Assembly (NCBI GenBank): GCA_015058945.1
Contig: SVBF01000007.1
Span: 133,850-197,849, forward strand
DNA from: Erysipelotrichaceae bacterium
GTDB taxonomy: Bacteria; Bacillota_I; Bacilli_A; RFN20; CAG-826
DNA length: 64,000 bases
Reading direction: 5' to 3'
The number at the start of each line of letters is the position of its first letter. Positions within the stretch are counted from its first letter, which is position 1. A program made the position numbers. Positions 15,001-18,000 of this stretch are shown here, piece by piece.

Positions 15001-18000
15001 GTAGGTGAAGATGGTGGCGATCCTGATTCTCTCCTCCTCGGGTAGCGCGGCGATCTGCTTCTTCAGCTCGTCGTAGTATTGCACGAGCAAATCGATGCTC
15101 GAAATCGCGAAGATCGCGTTGTATTTCCGATTCAGGGTGACTTTGTTGAAGTTCTCGAGGATGTGCTTGCTGATGTTGGCCACACGCTCTGGGGCACGGA
15201 TAAGCTCCTCTTTGTCGATCTCCTCGACCTGCTCGTCTTTTCCTGCCTTGACGACGATGTCGAGCGTCTTGTAGTACTGGACGTTGAAGCCGAGGACCAT
15301 CTTGGCGTTGATCGCGTCCTTGATTTTATAGGAATGGACGGGTGCGCCTCCGAAGATTGCCTCCGTGGTAAGCCCAGTCGCGTTCATGTTCTCCGCGAAG
15401 ATCGGGGTCCCCGTGAAGCCGAACATTTGCGCGTTTGGGAAGGCCCTTAGGATGTGCTTGCGCATCTCGCCGAAGTTGCTCCTGTGGCATTCGTCGACGA
15501 TAAACACGACGGAGTCCCTGTTCTGTTCCACCGCTTTCTCAAACCTTGGGTTCGTGCAGAGGTTCGACATCTTCTGGATGGTCGTGGTGATCATCTTAAT
15601 GGAAGAATCGGTGAACATTTTGAACAAACGGTATGAATCATCGATGTTGACGACGGCGCCCTTCTCGAAGGAATTGAAGTTCGTGACCGTCTGGCGGTCC
15701 AGGTCCCTTCTGTCGACTAGAAAAACGACCTTCGTGTACTTCCCGGTGTCTCTGAGGCATTGGGCGAGTTTGAAGCTCGTCAGCGTCTTGCCGGAGCCCG
15801 TGGTGTGCCAGACGAAGCCGTTGTTCTTCGTGTTGAGGGCCCTATGGAGCAGGTTCTCGACCGCCCACACCTGGTACGGCCTAAGGATCATTAGATCCCT
15901 CTCGCTCTGGTTGATGACGATGTAGTTCGCGATGGTCCTGCAGATGTTGCACTTGGTGAGCCTATCGGCGGCAAAATCGGAAAGCCTGTTGACCGCGACG
16001 TTCTCGACGTCCGACCAGGTGAAGAGGTTTTCCTTCTTGAATGGGCGGTCGCTGTTGGCGAAATATTTCGTCATCGAGCCGTTGGAGATTACGAAGTACT
16101 GGATGTATTTAAATAGCCCTTTGTAGACGGTCCTGCGGTAACGCTCAATCTGACCGAAAGCCTCGTCGACGTTCACGCCGTTTTTCTTGAGCTCAATCTG
16201 CAATAGCGGAAGGCCATTGACGAGGATCGTTACGTCGAAACGACCAGAAAATTCCGCCGTCTGGTTAATCTGATGGGCGATTTGGACGATGTTCTTGCAC
16301 CAATCGTTCTTGTCAAAGATCCGGATGTTTCGCTTCGAATCGTCATCCATGGTGATGGTCTGCATCTGACGAAGATTGATCGCACAGCGATATACAGTGT
16401 TGTACTTCTCGAGTTCGTTTAGAAGCCTTCTGAACTCCGAATCGGACAGGCTGAAACCGTTGAACCTTTCGATTTGCTTCCTGAGGTTCTTATATAGCGA
16501 GGCGTCGTCGTGGATCGCGACGAAAGCATCCTCCATGTCAGAGGAATGGAATTGCCGCCTTAACTGCTCAATAAGCTCGTTTTCTAACTCGAGCTCGGTC
16601 TGTTCCCCAATCAAGTCCGGCATCGCTAGGCCTCCACCACTCCATATTTCTTAAACAATTTCATTAGTTGTCTCTTCACTTTCATCGTCGGCTCATGATG
16701 GCCGTTTTCGTAGCGGTTGATCGTAGCGAAAGACACGCCAAGCATTTTGGCTAATTCGTTTTGGGTAATCAGGGCTTTATCTCTAAGCTCTTTGACGCTT
16801 TTCCCCCAATCCATCATTCGCCCTCCGCGCCGTTGGCCTTAAGCCAGTCGCCGAGAAGCTTCCCGTCGGATGCCGCCCACTCGGTCTTCCCATTCGCGCT
16901 GCGACCCAAAACAAACACCGCGGCAGCCGATGGGGACTTGAATTCGACGTCCTCCTGGATTATGCAGTCGGAACCGAGTTTTCCCTTAGAAGTCATCTCT
17001 TTCCTTATCTCCTCAAGGGCTTTGTGCATGGAAGGTCCTAAGACGGAGGAGATCCGCGAGCCTTTCTTGACGATGAACGTCTTGCCATCGGTCTCCATCT
17101 TAGCGTCCACGCTCAGCTTTACGGACGACAATCCAAACTGCCCCATCGCCTTTGCTGCGGCTGGGATTGGCTTTGCCGATGTGCCCCCGGCTTTCCCAAA
17201 GACGTTGTAGCCAAGAACCTCAGTGAGTGTCTTCACGATATCGGCGAACTCATCCATCTCGGCGGCGGAGGAATCCTTGATCTTCGTCGCGGGGCTCGAT
17301 GCTTTGGTAAGAACGGAGAAGTTGCCGGCATCCCTCGCGGCATTGACGAGCAGATTCTCAAGGTATTTTATCTTTGATTTATCAAGGTCCCGACCTGTGA
17401 CACAGACCGCGATGTCCCAGAAGAATTTCTCTTTCTTGGAGAGGTAGTCCGCCTTGTGCTGCTTAAGGCGCAAGCGGATGTTCTCGGACTCGCCGATATA
17501 CACCTCGCTGGCCGGATTCCCACAGAAGAGGAAATAGACTCCGATGTCGTCTAGTTCCGGTTCGCCTTCGACGTCGTCCCTGGAAATCTTGAATGCCTTC
17601 CCACTCCAGTTGGAAAGCTCGGCGGTCACCGTTCCACTGAACGAGCCGTTTTTGAGGAAAAGCTCGATTTTCTTACCGTAGGCCATAAGTCGCCTCCAAT
17701 CTCAAATCATCTTGCTTTGAGAATTATCTCACAACCGCAAACTGTTATAAAAGGATTATTAAACTCGCAACAAGATGATCCGGTCTTTTGATTGAACTGA
17801 GAACGGCAATTGCCTGCCGCGGAATTACCGCAAACGCAAGTCTAAGAAGAAGCGCCCATTACGATGGGTTTACGACGAAATCGACGACCGCGTTTTTCGT
17901 TTGGCAAGTCTGCTCGTCTCTACTAATGGAAGCGACCCCATCCCCTCGCTGAAACCCATAATCGCCGAAATTGGAATGGTTGCCCCCATCAATCACGATT

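What the first reader, a model, noticed from the sequence alone, without database searches (positions are those of the whole stretch)
16626..17686. GIY-YIG/DUF4357 nuclease and small XRE regulator translationally coupled to the head of the hsdR operon
A 290-aa protein with an N-terminal GIY-YIG motif (GVYFLF...YIGESENIRLRLKQH) overlaps a 63-aa XRE-HTH gene by 4 bp. The HTH gene ends 3 bp before hsdR. Both are therefore almost certainly co-transcribed with hsdR, hsdM and hsdS. An extra nuclease embedded in a Type I RM operon suggests an accessory anti-phage or abortive-infection module, or a modification-dependent nuclease backing up the RM system. The small HTH may act as a C-protein-like controller.
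Basis: partly seen in the sequence, partly recalled or inferred. Interest (0 to 1): 0.5.

Follow-up and report, generated by a model that had tools for sequence, protein, structure and literature searches.

The report
Candidate defence nuclease heading RM operon
A predicted DNA-cutting enzyme from a catalogued but untested candidate phage-defence family, and a small repressor-like protein, sit at the front of a Type I restriction-modification operon and move with it as one cassette; the finding is real, but both genes belong to kinds already described.

Summary
On the minus strand, a 290-aa GIY-YIG/DUF4357 gene (17686..16814) overlaps a 63-aa XRE gene (16817..16626) by 4 bp. The XRE gene ends 2 nt before hsdR, and hsdM, hsdS, an hsdS shufflon and a recombinase follow.

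The nuclease matches PADLOC's untested candidate family PDC-S14 over its full length (E 3e-73). Its GIY-YIG catalytic residues are invariant across 40 homologues, and the modelled fold matches solved GIY-YIG nucleases. Its C-terminal domain is DUF4357, which is weakly RAMA-like.

Homologues are strongly linked to RM genes. At least 34 of 80 genome loci carry Type I components, usually as hsdM-hsdS-hsdR-GIY. On Rhodococcus and Acinetobacter plasmids the gene sits between hsdS and hsdR. Homologues are rare in phages.

XRE homologues (58-71% identical) head unrelated defence operons that have no GIY gene: Type I, BREX, HKD-Snf2, and methylase-fused enzymes. This fits the published Mollicutes controller HsdC and argues against an antitoxin role.

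My best reading is a single-promoter mobile defence cassette. It would encode an autonomous, possibly modification-directed nuclease, an autorepressor and a phase-variable Type I system. The nuclease's target, and the XRE operator in this window, remain unproven. It is a new member of known kinds, of moderate interest.

The parts
17723..17751 (-). Predicted sigma-70-type promoter of the cassette: -35 TTTATA (17751..17746), 17-nt spacer, extended -10 TGTGA-GATAAT (17733..17723).
   Evidence: Consensus scan. It is the only promoter-like hit on the minus strand between 17751 and 11258. The block is conserved in L081, L083, L087 and L088, and its core CTTTTATAACA is invariant even in L089, whose GIY protein is 52% identical. 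It is a consensus match only; the number of promoter-like sites in the region is not above shuffles.
17743..17750 (+). TGTTATAA box, antisense to the operon and overlapping the -35. Candidate half-site for the HsdC-like XRE.
   Evidence: It is the only TGTTATAA in the 64-kb window. The 7-mer TGTTATA occurs 8 times in the window. [GT]TGTTATA lies just upstream of every XRE-first operon examined (L090, L091/L093, L095/L096, L097, L098, L100/L101). It matches the experimentally defined HsdC repeat GTGTTA. Its function here is inferred.
17700..17722 (-). Inverted repeat TCTCAAA-N9-TTTGAGA between the -10 and the ribosome-binding site. It could be an operator or a 5'-UTR hairpin.
   Evidence: the repeat finder I2. 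The arms are conserved in L081 and L087 while the spacer differs at 2 positions. The RNA fold is -11.5 kcal/mol with z = -1.9, which is only modest. A third TGAGA copy lies in the extended -10. Role unresolved.
17693..17697 (-). Shine-Dalgarno GGAGG of the GIY gene.
   Evidence: Read from the sequence.
16814..17686 (-). GIY-YIG/DUF4357 nuclease gene (290 aa), a member of PADLOC family PDC-S14.
17549..17686 (-). Conserved N-terminal extension (aa 1-46): three beta-strands plus short helices, with the motif AELSNW.GK. Function unknown.
   Evidence: Invariant K5, E8, E23, N26, W27, K30, K33 and R36 in 40 homologues. The model shows strands 7-11, 20-24 and 30-35.
17327..17542 (-). GIY-YIG catalytic domain (aa 49-120). 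Y51 is the GIY Tyr, Y63-I64-G65 is the YIG motif, and R73, H77 and E110-N111 complete the active site.
16832..17146 (-). C-terminal domain (aa 181-285), the presumed DNA-binding or targeting module. The DUF4357 model covers aa 228-277 (16856-17005).
16626..16817 (-). 63-aa XRE-family HTH gene, read as an HsdC-like controller of the operon.
   Evidence: HTH_3 E 1e-13. It is 100% identical to a protein of an Erysipelotrichaceae MAG. Homologues head other restriction or defence operons. The HTH is conserved in alignment A5.
13780..16623 (-). hsdR (947 aa), Type IC-like.
   Evidence: HSDR_N, SWI2_SNF2, T1R_D3-like and EcoR124_C domains. PADLOC REase_I E 3e-242.
12190..13764 (-). hsdM (524 aa).
   Evidence: N6_Mtase E 2e-107 and HsdM_N.
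11117..12193 (-). Expressed hsdS (358 aa), overlapping hsdM by 4 bp.
   Evidence: ORF list. The equivalent genes in L081 and L082 carry Methylase_S.
7650..11033 (.). Three further hsdS-like cassettes in alternating orientation (9879-11033 +, 8707-9837 -, 7650-8714 +), forming an inverting shufflon.
   Evidence: ORF list. L081 and L082 have the same layout with Methylase_S hits.
6655..7569 (-). Tyrosine recombinase (304 aa) that presumably inverts the hsdS cassettes.
   Evidence: ORF list. The counterpart in L081 carries Phage_integrase and is 74.5% identical in DNA.

Best explanation
Window ~17809..6655 is a mobile, self-contained defence cassette. It is most likely transcribed from one promoter (17751..17723) as GIY-XRE-hsdR-hsdM-hsdS, followed by an hsdS shufflon and its recombinase.

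(1) The 290-aa protein is an active GIY-YIG DNA endonuclease of the PADLOC PDC-S14 family. Its N-terminal half cuts DNA, and its C-terminal DUF4357 (RAMA-like) domain binds or targets DNA. It probably works on its own as a second restriction activity riding in RM operons. The most likely role is Type IV-like: attacking phage DNA whose modified bases escape the Type I enzyme. N6-methyladenine is an unlikely trigger, because the operon's own phase-variable methylase makes it.

(2) The 63-aa XRE protein is an HsdC-type controller. It would bind the cassette's promoter region and autorepress the whole operon, limiting nuclease and HsdR levels, especially after transfer to a new host.

Shown here: the gene order and junctions, intact catalytic residues and fold, family membership, RM association, cassette mobility, and XRE synteny with defence operons. 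Inferred: transcription as one unit, nuclease activity and its target, anti-phage effect, and the XRE binding site and sign of regulation.

Sub-probabilities: defence-related nuclease 0.8; single operon 0.85; XRE is the operon's controller 0.75; modification-directed cleavage 0.3.
For: Anatomy: the junctions are -4, +2, +15 and -4 nt, each with a Shine-Dalgarno sequence. One promoter-like site lies upstream, and none lies between it and the 3' part of hsdS (the next hit, 11258..11229, falls inside hsdS).

RM link: 34 of 80 genome loci carry HsdR/M/S-like genes within 10 kb, and 14 of the 28 loci with both flanks of 8 kb or more. The hsdR stop lies within 200 nt upstream of the GIY start, on the same strand, in 13 loci. 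Of the immediate upstream neighbours, 17 of 74 are ResIII/HsdR. Downstream neighbours include N6_N4 MTase, GmrSD_N, Mrr_cat, NYN and DUF6361. The order is hsdM-hsdS-GIY-hsdR on Rhodococcus and Acinetobacter plasmids. One relative sits as HTH-MTase-338 aa-GIY in a Type II-like operon.

Mobility: the block 17809..12138 is 95% identical to L081 and 79% to L087, with three different upstream contexts.

DUF4357 elsewhere: the literature reports it fused to GmrSD and McrB Type IV enzymes. GIY-YIG-RAMA fusions have been flagged as candidate Type IV enzymes. CMoRE/PD-T4-3 shows that a GIY-YIG domain plus a C-terminal sensor can be a Type IV enzyme.

XRE: homologues 58-71% identical head XRE-hsdR-hsdM, XRE-hsdM-hsdS-hsdS-hsdR, XRE-BrxABC-PglX, XRE-MTase-fused ResIII/MTase, and XRE-HKD/Snf2-DUF4391. 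The L093 HsdR is only 21% identical to the window's, so the XRE is a portable controller. HsdC of M. gallisepticum is a small HTH protein in an hsd operon that binds (GTGTTAN5)2 over the -10 and appears to repress the operon. GTGTTA-type repeats with conserved TG and 11-bp phasing lie upstream of the XRE-first operons.
Against: No PDC-S14 member has been tested. The only phenotype data found are a P. aeruginosa panel in which PDC-S14 was not enriched among phage-resistant strains (57% of the 14 carrying strains were susceptible).

The solved RAMA domains (CcrM, MPND) contact DNA without base or 6mA specificity. A modification-reading role for DUF4357 is therefore conjecture. The RAMA match here is below threshold (16.5 bits against 35.2).

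Tight translational coupling to hsdR or hsdS across phyla could instead mean a physical partnership with the Type I enzyme.

The promoter is only a consensus match, and the number of such sites in the region equals the shuffle expectation. Weak terminator-like hairpins exist inside the GIY and XRE genes (16932..16916 and 16751..16737).

In the window the HsdC-type direct repeat is not present. There is one TGTTATAA in reverse orientation at the -35 and a GTGAGA in the -10. In the XRE-first loci the motif cannot be separated from an extended -10 consensus (TGnTATAAT).

Sequence homology to M. gallisepticum HsdC could not be tested. No classical C protein appears among the PDB sequence hits.
Confidence: 0.6

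Rival explanations
1. The GIY-YIG/DUF4357 protein is not autonomous. It would be an accessory subunit or effector of the Type I enzyme, recruited by HsdM/HsdS/HsdR (perhaps through the conserved N-terminal 46 residues) to add or amplify DNA cleavage at translocating or stalled complexes.
For: The gene is embedded in Type I operons at three different positions (before XRE-hsdR, between hsdS and hsdR, after hsdR) in Firmicutes, Actinobacteria and Proteobacteria, often with overlapping stop and start codons. The N-terminal extension is strongly conserved and has no assigned function. RAMA-type domains bind DNA non-specifically, which would suit a nuclease that is targeted by a partner.
Against: Half of the well-flanked loci (14 of 28) have no Type I gene within 8-10 kb. 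Other members sit with Type II-like MTases, GmrSD, Mrr or DUF6361 genes, or in a prophage. The associated HsdR proteins belong to different Type I families (EcoR124_C, EcoEI_R_C, T1RH-like_C), so a conserved protein interface is unlikely. The hsdS-hsdR gap is a known insertion hotspot for unrelated defence genes such as DarTG2.
Confidence: 0.15
2. GIY and XRE form a toxin-antitoxin or abortive-infection pair. The nuclease would be a toxin held in check by the XRE protein, as in toxin-first pairs such as MqsR/MqsA.
For: The genes overlap by 4 bp with the putative toxin first. The XRE protein gives weak hits to MqsA, HipB and PezA-type antitoxin HTH models. The GIY-XRE pair is kept down to 52% GIY identity, in front of a different RM gene.
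Against: In the 80 genome loci (39-58% identical relatives) the only tblastn match to the XRE was about 5 kb from the GIY gene, in L048. The iterative profile search found 9 XRE-like ORFs of 70 aa or more in 8 of these loci, but their position relative to GIY was not examined. ORFs under 70 aa were not called. The XRE clade occurs without any GIY gene at the head of Type I, BREX and other operons. The antitoxin hits cover only the generic HTH and fall far below the family cut-offs. At 63 aa, the protein has no room for a toxin-binding domain.
Confidence: 0.05
3. The GIY-YIG protein is a selfish homing-type endonuclease, or a remnant of one, that happened to insert upstream of hsdR.
Against: The NCBIfam score is 24.6 against a cut-off of 56. 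The viral structural matches cover only the catalytic domain (TMq 0.28 or less, E 1e-3 or worse). Only 4 of 50,697 phage records encode a relative. Pfam, NCBIfam and PADLOC scans reported no domain other than GIY-YIG, DUF4357 and sub-threshold RAMA. Synteny inside RM operons is conserved across phyla. The gene moves together with the RM genes, not on its own.
Confidence: 0.05

Closest known systems
PADLOC phage-defence candidate PDC-S14 (single-gene candidate, PADLOC-DB v2)
   Same: The window protein matches the model over its full length (E 3.3e-73, residues 1-282 on profile positions 13-295 of 301). It has the same GIY-YIG plus DUF4357 architecture.
   Different: Nothing differs structurally; the window protein is a member. 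PDC-S14 is only a guilt-by-association candidate with no published test that I could find. The head-of-operon position with an XRE gene is a subclade feature.
CMoRE / PD-T4-3 (GIY-YIG Type IV restriction endonuclease specific for 5hmC/5ghmC; PMC12923530)
   Same: [quoted passage not shown] Both are defence-associated.
   Different: The window protein has GVYFLF, so the defining GIYxY third tyrosine is absent. No PADLOC hit named PD-T4-3 appeared at E 0.1 or better. Foldseek against 9u75 gives E 1.7, which is not significant. The CMoRE sensor domain is reported to have no homologues, whereas this one is DUF4357/RAMA-like. The window protein also has an extra conserved N-terminal extension.
HsdC, the controller protein of a Type I hsd operon in Mycoplasma gallisepticum and other Mollicutes (Fisunov et al. 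2017, PMC5282649)
   Same: Both are small HTH-only proteins encoded inside hsd operons and co-transcribed with hsdR/M/S. Published HsdC homologues are also associated with Type II methylases. The GTGTTA-type repeats with a critical TG overlapping the -10 resemble the motifs upstream of this XRE clade's operons. The N-terminus MFDYAKKI resembles M(x)DY.K.IK of the clade. The likely host family here, Erysipelotrichaceae, is related to Mollicutes (my own knowledge).
   Different: Here the controller is the second gene, behind a nuclease gene. The window's promoter lacks the (GTGTTAN5)2 direct repeat. This clade also heads BREX and HKD-Snf2 operons, which was not reported for HsdC.
Classical C (controller) proteins of Type II RM systems (C.PvuII, C.AhdI, C.Esp1396I)
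   Same: Both are small XRE-type HTH proteins encoded immediately upstream of, and co-transcribed with, the restriction gene.
   Different: No C-box (GACT/AGTC inverted repeats) is present in 17687-17810 (sequence read). No C protein appears among the PDB sequence hits at E 1e-3 or better. PADLOC 'Control_protein' scores only E 2e-4. Here the methylase genes are in the same transcription unit, so the classical 'methylase first, nuclease later' delay circuit does not apply.
RptR, the repressor heading Type I RM defence islands with embedded DarTG2 in Gammaproteobacteria (PMC12255303)
   Same: Both are very small regulators encoded in a Type I RM island that also carries an embedded extra defence gene. 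RptR autorepresses by binding over the -10.
   Different: RptR is a 79-aa four-helix, bZIP-like protein with no PDB homologues that binds TAGCTA. It is not an XRE HTH protein. The two are functional analogues, not homologues.
DUF4357/RAMA domains in other restriction proteins (GmrSD, McrB homologues, CcrM, MPND, a PADLOC model named DUF3780)
   Same: The same C-terminal module occurs fused to Type IV restriction enzymes and DNA methylases.
   Different: In those proteins the partner domains are ParB/HNH, a GTPase, a methyltransferase or a deubiquitinase rather than GIY-YIG. Where solved, RAMA binds DNA without 6mA or base specificity.

Membership tests
GIY-YIG nuclease superfamily (PF01541) | Profile match above the curated threshold | tested here: met
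   27.1 bits against a cut-off of 22.6, aa 49-118. 39 of 40 homologues also match.
GIY-YIG nuclease superfamily (PF01541) | Catalytic set: GIY Tyr, YIG Tyr-x-Gly, Arg about 10 residues after YIG, and a metal-binding Glu (followed by Asn) | tested here: met
   Y51, Y63-I64-G65, R73, H77 and E110 are invariant in 40 sequences. N111 is the majority residue at the position after E110, with D or H in some members.
GIY-YIG nuclease superfamily (PF01541) | GIY-YIG alpha/beta fold | tested here: met
DUF4357 (PF14267) | Profile match above the curated threshold | tested here: met
   58.2 bits against 38.4, aa 228-277. 40 of 40 homologues match.
RAMA (PF18755) | Profile match above the curated threshold | tested here: inconclusive
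PADLOC PDC-S14 | Full-length match to the family HMM | tested here: met
   E 3.3e-73 and 9.6e-71 for two models, covering residues 1-284.
PADLOC PDC-S14 | Genomic association with defence genes (the basis on which the candidate was defined) | tested here: met
PADLOC PDC-S14 | Demonstrated protection against phage | not testable with these tools
   No experimental paper was found.
CMoRE / PD-T4-3 | GIYxY-YIG motif (a third tyrosine two residues after the GIY Tyr) | tested here: not met
   The window protein has G49-V50-Y51-F52-L53, and Leu at that position is invariant in the family.
CMoRE / PD-T4-3 | Sequence or structure similarity to CMoRE | tested here: not met
   No PADLOC hit named PD-T4-3 at E 0.1 or better. 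No PDB profile hit. Foldseek against 9u75 gives E 1.7.
CMoRE / PD-T4-3 | Cleavage only of modified (5hmC/5ghmC) DNA | not testable with these tools
   Requires biochemistry.
HsdC-type controllers of Mollicutes | Small HTH-only protein encoded in, and co-transcribed with, an hsd or RM operon | tested here: met
   63 aa, HTH_3 only, 2 nt before hsdR. Relatives head Type I and methylase operons.
HsdC-type controllers of Mollicutes | Operator made of GTGTTA-type repeats (critical TG) with 11-bp phasing, overlapping the -10 | tested here: inconclusive
   Present upstream of relatives: L090 GTGTTA-N5-ATGATA, L091/L093 GTGTTA-N5-TTGGTA, L100 GTGTTA-N5-TTGTTT, L097 TTGTTA-N5-TTGAGA. There it overlaps the extended -10 consensus. 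In the window there is only a reversed TGTTATAA at the -35 and a GTGAGA in the -10.
HsdC-type controllers of Mollicutes | Sequence homology to M. gallisepticum HsdC (GCW_02350) | not testable with these tools
   The sequence was not retrievable. Only the 8 N-terminal residues deduced from a primer (MFDYAKKI) could be compared with the clade consensus M.DY.K.IK.
Classical Type II C proteins | C-box operator (GACT...AGTC inverted repeats) upstream of the C gene | tested here: not met
   No AGTC, and only one GACT (next to the start codon), in 17687-17810.
Classical Type II C proteins | Sequence similarity to solved C proteins | tested here: not met
   The PDB hits are generic XRE proteins and none is a C protein. 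PADLOC Control_protein scores E 2e-4.
Type II toxin-antitoxin pair (GIY toxin, XRE antitoxin) | The two partners consistently co-occur | tested here: not met
   The XRE occurs without GIY. GIY occurs without a detected adjacent XRE, although ORFs under 70 aa were not called in the 80 genome loci.
GIY-YIG homing endonucleases (I-TevI type) | Match to the group I intron endonuclease model, and residence in phage, intron or intein contexts | tested here: not met
   TIGR01453 scores 24.6 bits against 56.05. Only 4 of 50,697 phage records match. No full-length viral structural match was found.

The most novel reading that the evidence does not exclude
Two readings remain open. First, PDC-S14 proteins could be a large, unrecognised family of restriction nucleases (1,235 clusters at 50% identity with E 1e-30 or better) that use a RAMA-like DUF4357 domain to select their DNA substrate. 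They might act as a new kind of Type IV enzyme, or as a fourth, plug-in nuclease module of Type I systems. Second, the accompanying XRE clade could be a portable 'pan-defence' controller that puts Type I, Type II-like, BREX and HKD-Snf2 systems under one common type of promoter control in Firmicutes.
Probability: 0.3. Interest if true: 0.6.

Novelty: new member of a known kind. Interest (0 to 1): 0.4.

Why it matters
PDC-S14 is widespread: about 4,600 clusters at 50% identity with E 1e-10 or better. It sits inside RM operons across at least three phyla, yet nobody has shown what it cuts.

If it is a modification-directed GIY-YIG enzyme with a RAMA-like reader, it would add a new Type IV family. 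It would also give the first clear function for DUF4357 and bear on the disputed role of RAMA domains as DNA-modification readers.

This cassette is a convenient test case. It is compact and appears to have a single promoter. Natural variants exist in which the same XRE clade controls other systems.

The XRE result extends the little-studied HsdC-type transcriptional control of Type I systems to BREX and other defence operons. Even so, this locus is an instance of already catalogued kinds rather than a new principle.

Tried and rejected
- Single-sequence AlphaFold gave an unusable model (pLDDT 34.5). The 40-sequence alignment was needed.
- I tested whether the unannotated 278-aa gene upstream of the XRE in a BREX locus is a diverged GIY/DUF4357 protein. 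It is not (hhalign probability 0.1%, no Pfam hit).
- I looked for a classical C-box and found none.
- I tried to define the XRE operator in the window. Candidates are the reversed TGTTATAA at the -35, the TGAGA repeats around the -10, a 16-nt imperfect inverted repeat flanking the promoter (17706-17721 and 17764-17779, whose upstream arm is deleted in L087), and a 5'-UTR hairpin (z -1.9). None is decisive. In XRE-first loci the shared GTGTTATAAT cannot be separated from an extended -10 promoter.
- I looked for an internal promoter in front of the XRE-hsdR genes inside the GIY gene and found none.
- The toxin-antitoxin and homing-endonuclease readings were considered and rejected on distribution grounds.
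- The statement in one paper that PDC-S14 overlaps GAO_29 was followed up. GAO_29 is Gao_RL/MANTIS, a four-gene methylation-based system. The overlap may lie in the DUF4357-like C-terminal domain that a PADLOC model named DUF3780 shares with the window protein, but I did not establish that this model belongs to GAO_29.
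Full report
**Observation**

The sequence and ORF list show all of the following on the minus strand:
- A 63-aa ORF at 16817..16626 starts inside the stop codon of the first (ATGA, a 4-bp overlap). It is preceded by GGAGGG.
- hsdR (16623..13780, 947 aa) starts 2 nt after the stop of the small ORF. A GGAGG lies 7 nt upstream.
- hsdM (13764..12190) follows after 15 nt, and hsdS (12193..11117) overlaps hsdM by 4 bp.
- Further on lie three hsdS-like cassettes in alternating orientation and a tyrosine recombinase. 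Together these make a phase-variable Type I locus.

DUF4357 scores E 8e-16 and GIY-YIG scores E 5e-6, both above their curated cut-offs. The small protein matches HTH_3 at E 1e-13. HsdR carries an EcoR124_C tail, so it is Type IC-like.

**What the 290-aa protein is**

PADLOC's library places it, over its full length, in the single-gene phage-defence candidate family PDC-S14 (E 3.3e-73). The C-terminal third also matches a second candidate, PDC-S57, and a model named DUF3780.

A word-indexed search found 2,250 homologues. An exhaustive profile search found 1,235 clusters at 50% identity with E 1e-30 or better, and 4,578 with E 1e-10 or better. The family is therefore large.

In an alignment of 40 homologues down to 42% identity, the GIY-YIG catalytic set is invariant: Y51, Y63, G65, R73, H77 and E110.

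The catalytic domain is preceded by a 46-residue, highly conserved beta-rich extension of unknown role. A helical linker and a disordered stretch (aa 160-180) follow it. A C-terminal domain of about 105 residues comes last, and the DUF4357 model covers only its second half.

**Where relatives live**

The closest relatives (94% and 76% identical) keep the exact order GIY-XRE-hsdR-hsdM-hsdS. A 52% relative has GIY-XRE in front of an 875-aa HsdM-like methylase. A 46% relative is the last gene of an HTH-methylase-unknown-GIY operon.

The DNA block 17809..12138 starts 123 nt upstream of the GIY start codon. It is 95% identical to one metagenomic genome and 79% identical to another. The upstream neighbours differ in all three genomes. 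The cassette therefore travels with its own promoter.

Among 80 loci from species-representative genomes, 34 carry HsdR-, HsdM- or HsdS-like genes within 10 kb. The figure is 14 of the 28 loci that have at least 8 kb on both sides. These genes lie almost always upstream and on the same strand. In 13 loci hsdR ends within 200 nt of the GIY start.

Pfam scans of the immediate neighbours show 17 of 74 upstream genes to be ResIII/HsdR. Downstream genes include N6/N4 methylases, GmrSD, Mrr, NYN and DUF6361. On Rhodococcus and Acinetobacter plasmids, at about 30% identity, the gene lies between hsdS and hsdR with overlapping junctions.

Only 4 of 50,697 phage records encode a relative. One of these lies next to an excisionase and a DNA methyltransferase in a Lachnospiraceae phage.

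The family is thus linked to restriction-modification, above all Type I, across Firmicutes, Actinobacteria and Proteobacteria. Half of the well-flanked loci have no Type I gene nearby, so the link is not obligate. The head-of-operon position seen in the window is the exception; the usual place is after hsdR.

**What the small protein is**

It is identical to a protein annotated in an Erysipelotrichaceae MAG. Only 41 homologues were found at E 1e-6 or better, and they form a tight clade with a nearly invariant helix-turn-helix.

Members 58-71% identical to the window's protein, none with a GIY gene nearby, are the first gene of:
- XRE-hsdR-hsdM, with a recombinase and inverted hsdS;
- XRE-hsdM-hsdS-hsdS-hsdR;
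- XRE-BrxA-BrxB-BrxC...PglX, which is BREX;
- XRE-Type II methylase-1,356-aa ResIII/SNF2/methylase fusion;
- XRE-HKD/Snf2 helicase-DUF4391.

The HsdR that follows the 64%-identical XRE is only 21% identical to the window's HsdR. The regulator is therefore a portable head-of-operon element and has not co-evolved with one particular system. The HTH gene heading the Type II-like operon that ends in a GIY gene belongs to the same clade (44% identical). These facts argue against an antitoxin dedicated to the nuclease and for a controller of the whole operon.

A published precedent fits well. HsdC of Mycoplasma gallisepticum is a small HTH protein encoded in an hsd operon. It binds the direct repeat (GTGTTAN5)2 overlapping the -10, with the TG dinucleotide critical, and appears to repress the whole operon. 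Its homologues in other Mollicutes accompany Type I and Type II systems.

Upstream of the XRE-first operons I find GTGTTA-N5-ATGATA, GTGTTA-N5-TTGGTA, GTGTTA-N5-TTGTTT and TTGTTA-N5-TTGAGA. The first eight residues of HsdC, deduced from the cloning primer (MFDYAKKI), resemble the clade's M.DY.K.IK.

There are three caveats:
- In those loci the motif coincides with an extended -10 consensus.
- The full HsdC sequence could not be compared.
- The window itself lacks the direct repeat.

The window has one TGTTATAA, the only copy in 64 kb. It is reversed, lies over the -35, and sits within an 11-nt block that is invariant even in the 52% relative. The window also has three TGAGA elements around the -10 and in the leader. 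The leader inverted repeat folds only modestly as RNA (z -1.9). The operator in the window is unresolved.

Classical C-protein membership fails. There is no C-box, no C protein among the PDB sequence hits, and only a weak PADLOC Control_protein hit. RptR, the recently described repressor of Type I islands with an embedded DarTG2, is a functional analogue with an unrelated fold.

**How it most likely works**

One sigma-70-type promoter (TTTATA-17 nt-TGTGAGATAAT, 17751..17723) is the only promoter-like site on that strand upstream of the five genes, and the junctions are tight. I infer one transcript, autorepressed by the XRE protein. This would keep the nuclease and HsdR low, and could give a burst of expression on entry into a naive cell, before repressor accumulates.

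The GIY protein is most likely an autonomous DNA endonuclease that adds a second restriction activity. The literature reports DUF4357 fused to the Type IV enzymes GmrSD and McrB. GIY-YIG-RAMA fusions have been flagged as possible Type IV enzymes. CMoRE/PD-T4-3 proves that a GIY-YIG domain plus a C-terminal sensor can be a modification-dependent restriction enzyme.

The window protein is not a CMoRE member. The defining GIYxY tyrosine is an invariant leucine here, and there is no significant sequence or structural similarity.

I rate modification-directed cleavage at about 0.3. The solved RAMA domains bind DNA without 6mA or base specificity. A 6mA-triggered nuclease would also be dangerous in an operon whose own methylase changes specificity by phase variation. 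If a modification is read, a non-adenine phage modification is more likely.

**Rivals**

- An accessory subunit of the Type I enzyme (0.15). The repeated, translationally coupled embedding and the unexplained conserved N-terminal extension favour it. The many loci without Type I genes, and the diversity of associated HsdR families, disfavour it.
- A toxin-antitoxin pair (0.05). The distribution of the two genes contradicts it.
- A homing endonuclease (0.05). The distribution contradicts it, as does the lack of homing-type features.

**Novelty and verdict**

Both genes belong to kinds already on record: PDC-S14, a catalogued but untested candidate, and HsdC-type controllers. Defence genes embedded in Type I operons are also well known. 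The new points are modest:
- the GIY-controller-hsdR head arrangement;
- the breadth of the PDC-S14/Type I association, in three operon positions and across at least three phyla;
- the finding that this XRE clade also heads BREX and other non-Type I defence operons.

I score interest at 0.4 and class the locus as a new member of a known kind.

Noticed in passing
window 6655-12193: This is a phase-variable Type I specificity locus. The expressed hsdS (12193..11117) is followed by three hsdS-like cassettes in alternating orientation (9879-11033 +, 8707-9837 -, 7650-8714 +) and a tyrosine recombinase (7569..6655). L081 and L082 have the same layout. The expressed hsdS is 358 aa, against 408-411 aa in the 94% relatives.
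   Followed up: partly
window 17809..12138 compared with L081, L082 and L087; window 38841-40153: The cassette's shared DNA block begins 123 nt upstream of the GIY start, and the upstream neighbours differ in three genomes. The region upstream of the cassette in L087 (a DUF2188 gene) matches window 38.8-40.2 kb at 72-77% identity. That is about 21 kb away in the window, so there has been an insertion or rearrangement between the two genomes.
   Followed up: partly
L095 6001-12195 and L096 2083-8277: A 64-aa XRE protein 63% identical to the window's lies directly upstream of brxA-brxB-brxC...pglX (BREX type 1). An unannotated 278- or 379-aa gene precedes it, with no Pfam or PADLOC match. A small XRE controller for BREX differs from the published WYL-type BrxR (my own knowledge).
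   Followed up: partly
L100 3669-7778 and L098 6001-11247: The same XRE clade heads an HKD+Snf2 helicase (PADLOC C3a139) plus DUF4391 pair. It also heads a Type II methylase plus a 1,356-aa ResIII/SNF2/methylase fusion, which is followed by a Schlafen-like helicase.
   Followed up: partly
L102 (Rhodococcus plasmid NZ_CP069307.1) and L103 (Acinetobacter plasmid NC_023031.1): GIY-YIG/DUF4357 genes about 30% identical to the window's are inserted between hsdS and hsdR with overlapping junctions. In Rhodococcus a SprT-like metalloprotease follows. This is the same hotspot that holds DarTG2 or PrrC in other Type I loci.
   Followed up: partly
window 16626-16817: The XRE gene has 44% G+C, whereas the genes on either side have 55% (GIY) and 53% (hsdR). 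hsdS and the shufflon are also low, at 42%. The controller may have a different origin from its neighbours.
   Followed up: no
window 23171-24475 (-) and L090 3563-4918: A 434-aa ORF in the window resembles an AAA_14/DUF4143 ATPase (judged by eye from its translation, not scanned) and lies about 5.5 kb from the cassette. An AAA_14/DUF4143 gene also directly follows the GIY gene in L090. This may be coincidence, since these ATPases are common.
   Followed up: no
proteins P0167, P0169, P0201 and others: Some family representatives are much longer (400-1,200 aa) and match the profile in 2-6 stretches. This suggests tandem duplications of the C-terminal domain, or fusions of whole units.
   Followed up: no
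L081 1-9000: In the 94% relatives the cassette sits next to HTH_3 + Peptidase_M78 (ImmA/IrrE-like), DUF4417, a UvrD-type helicase, a WYL protein and a recombinase fragment that is 82% identical to part of the window's recombinase gene. This looks like a larger defence or mobile island.
   Followed up: no
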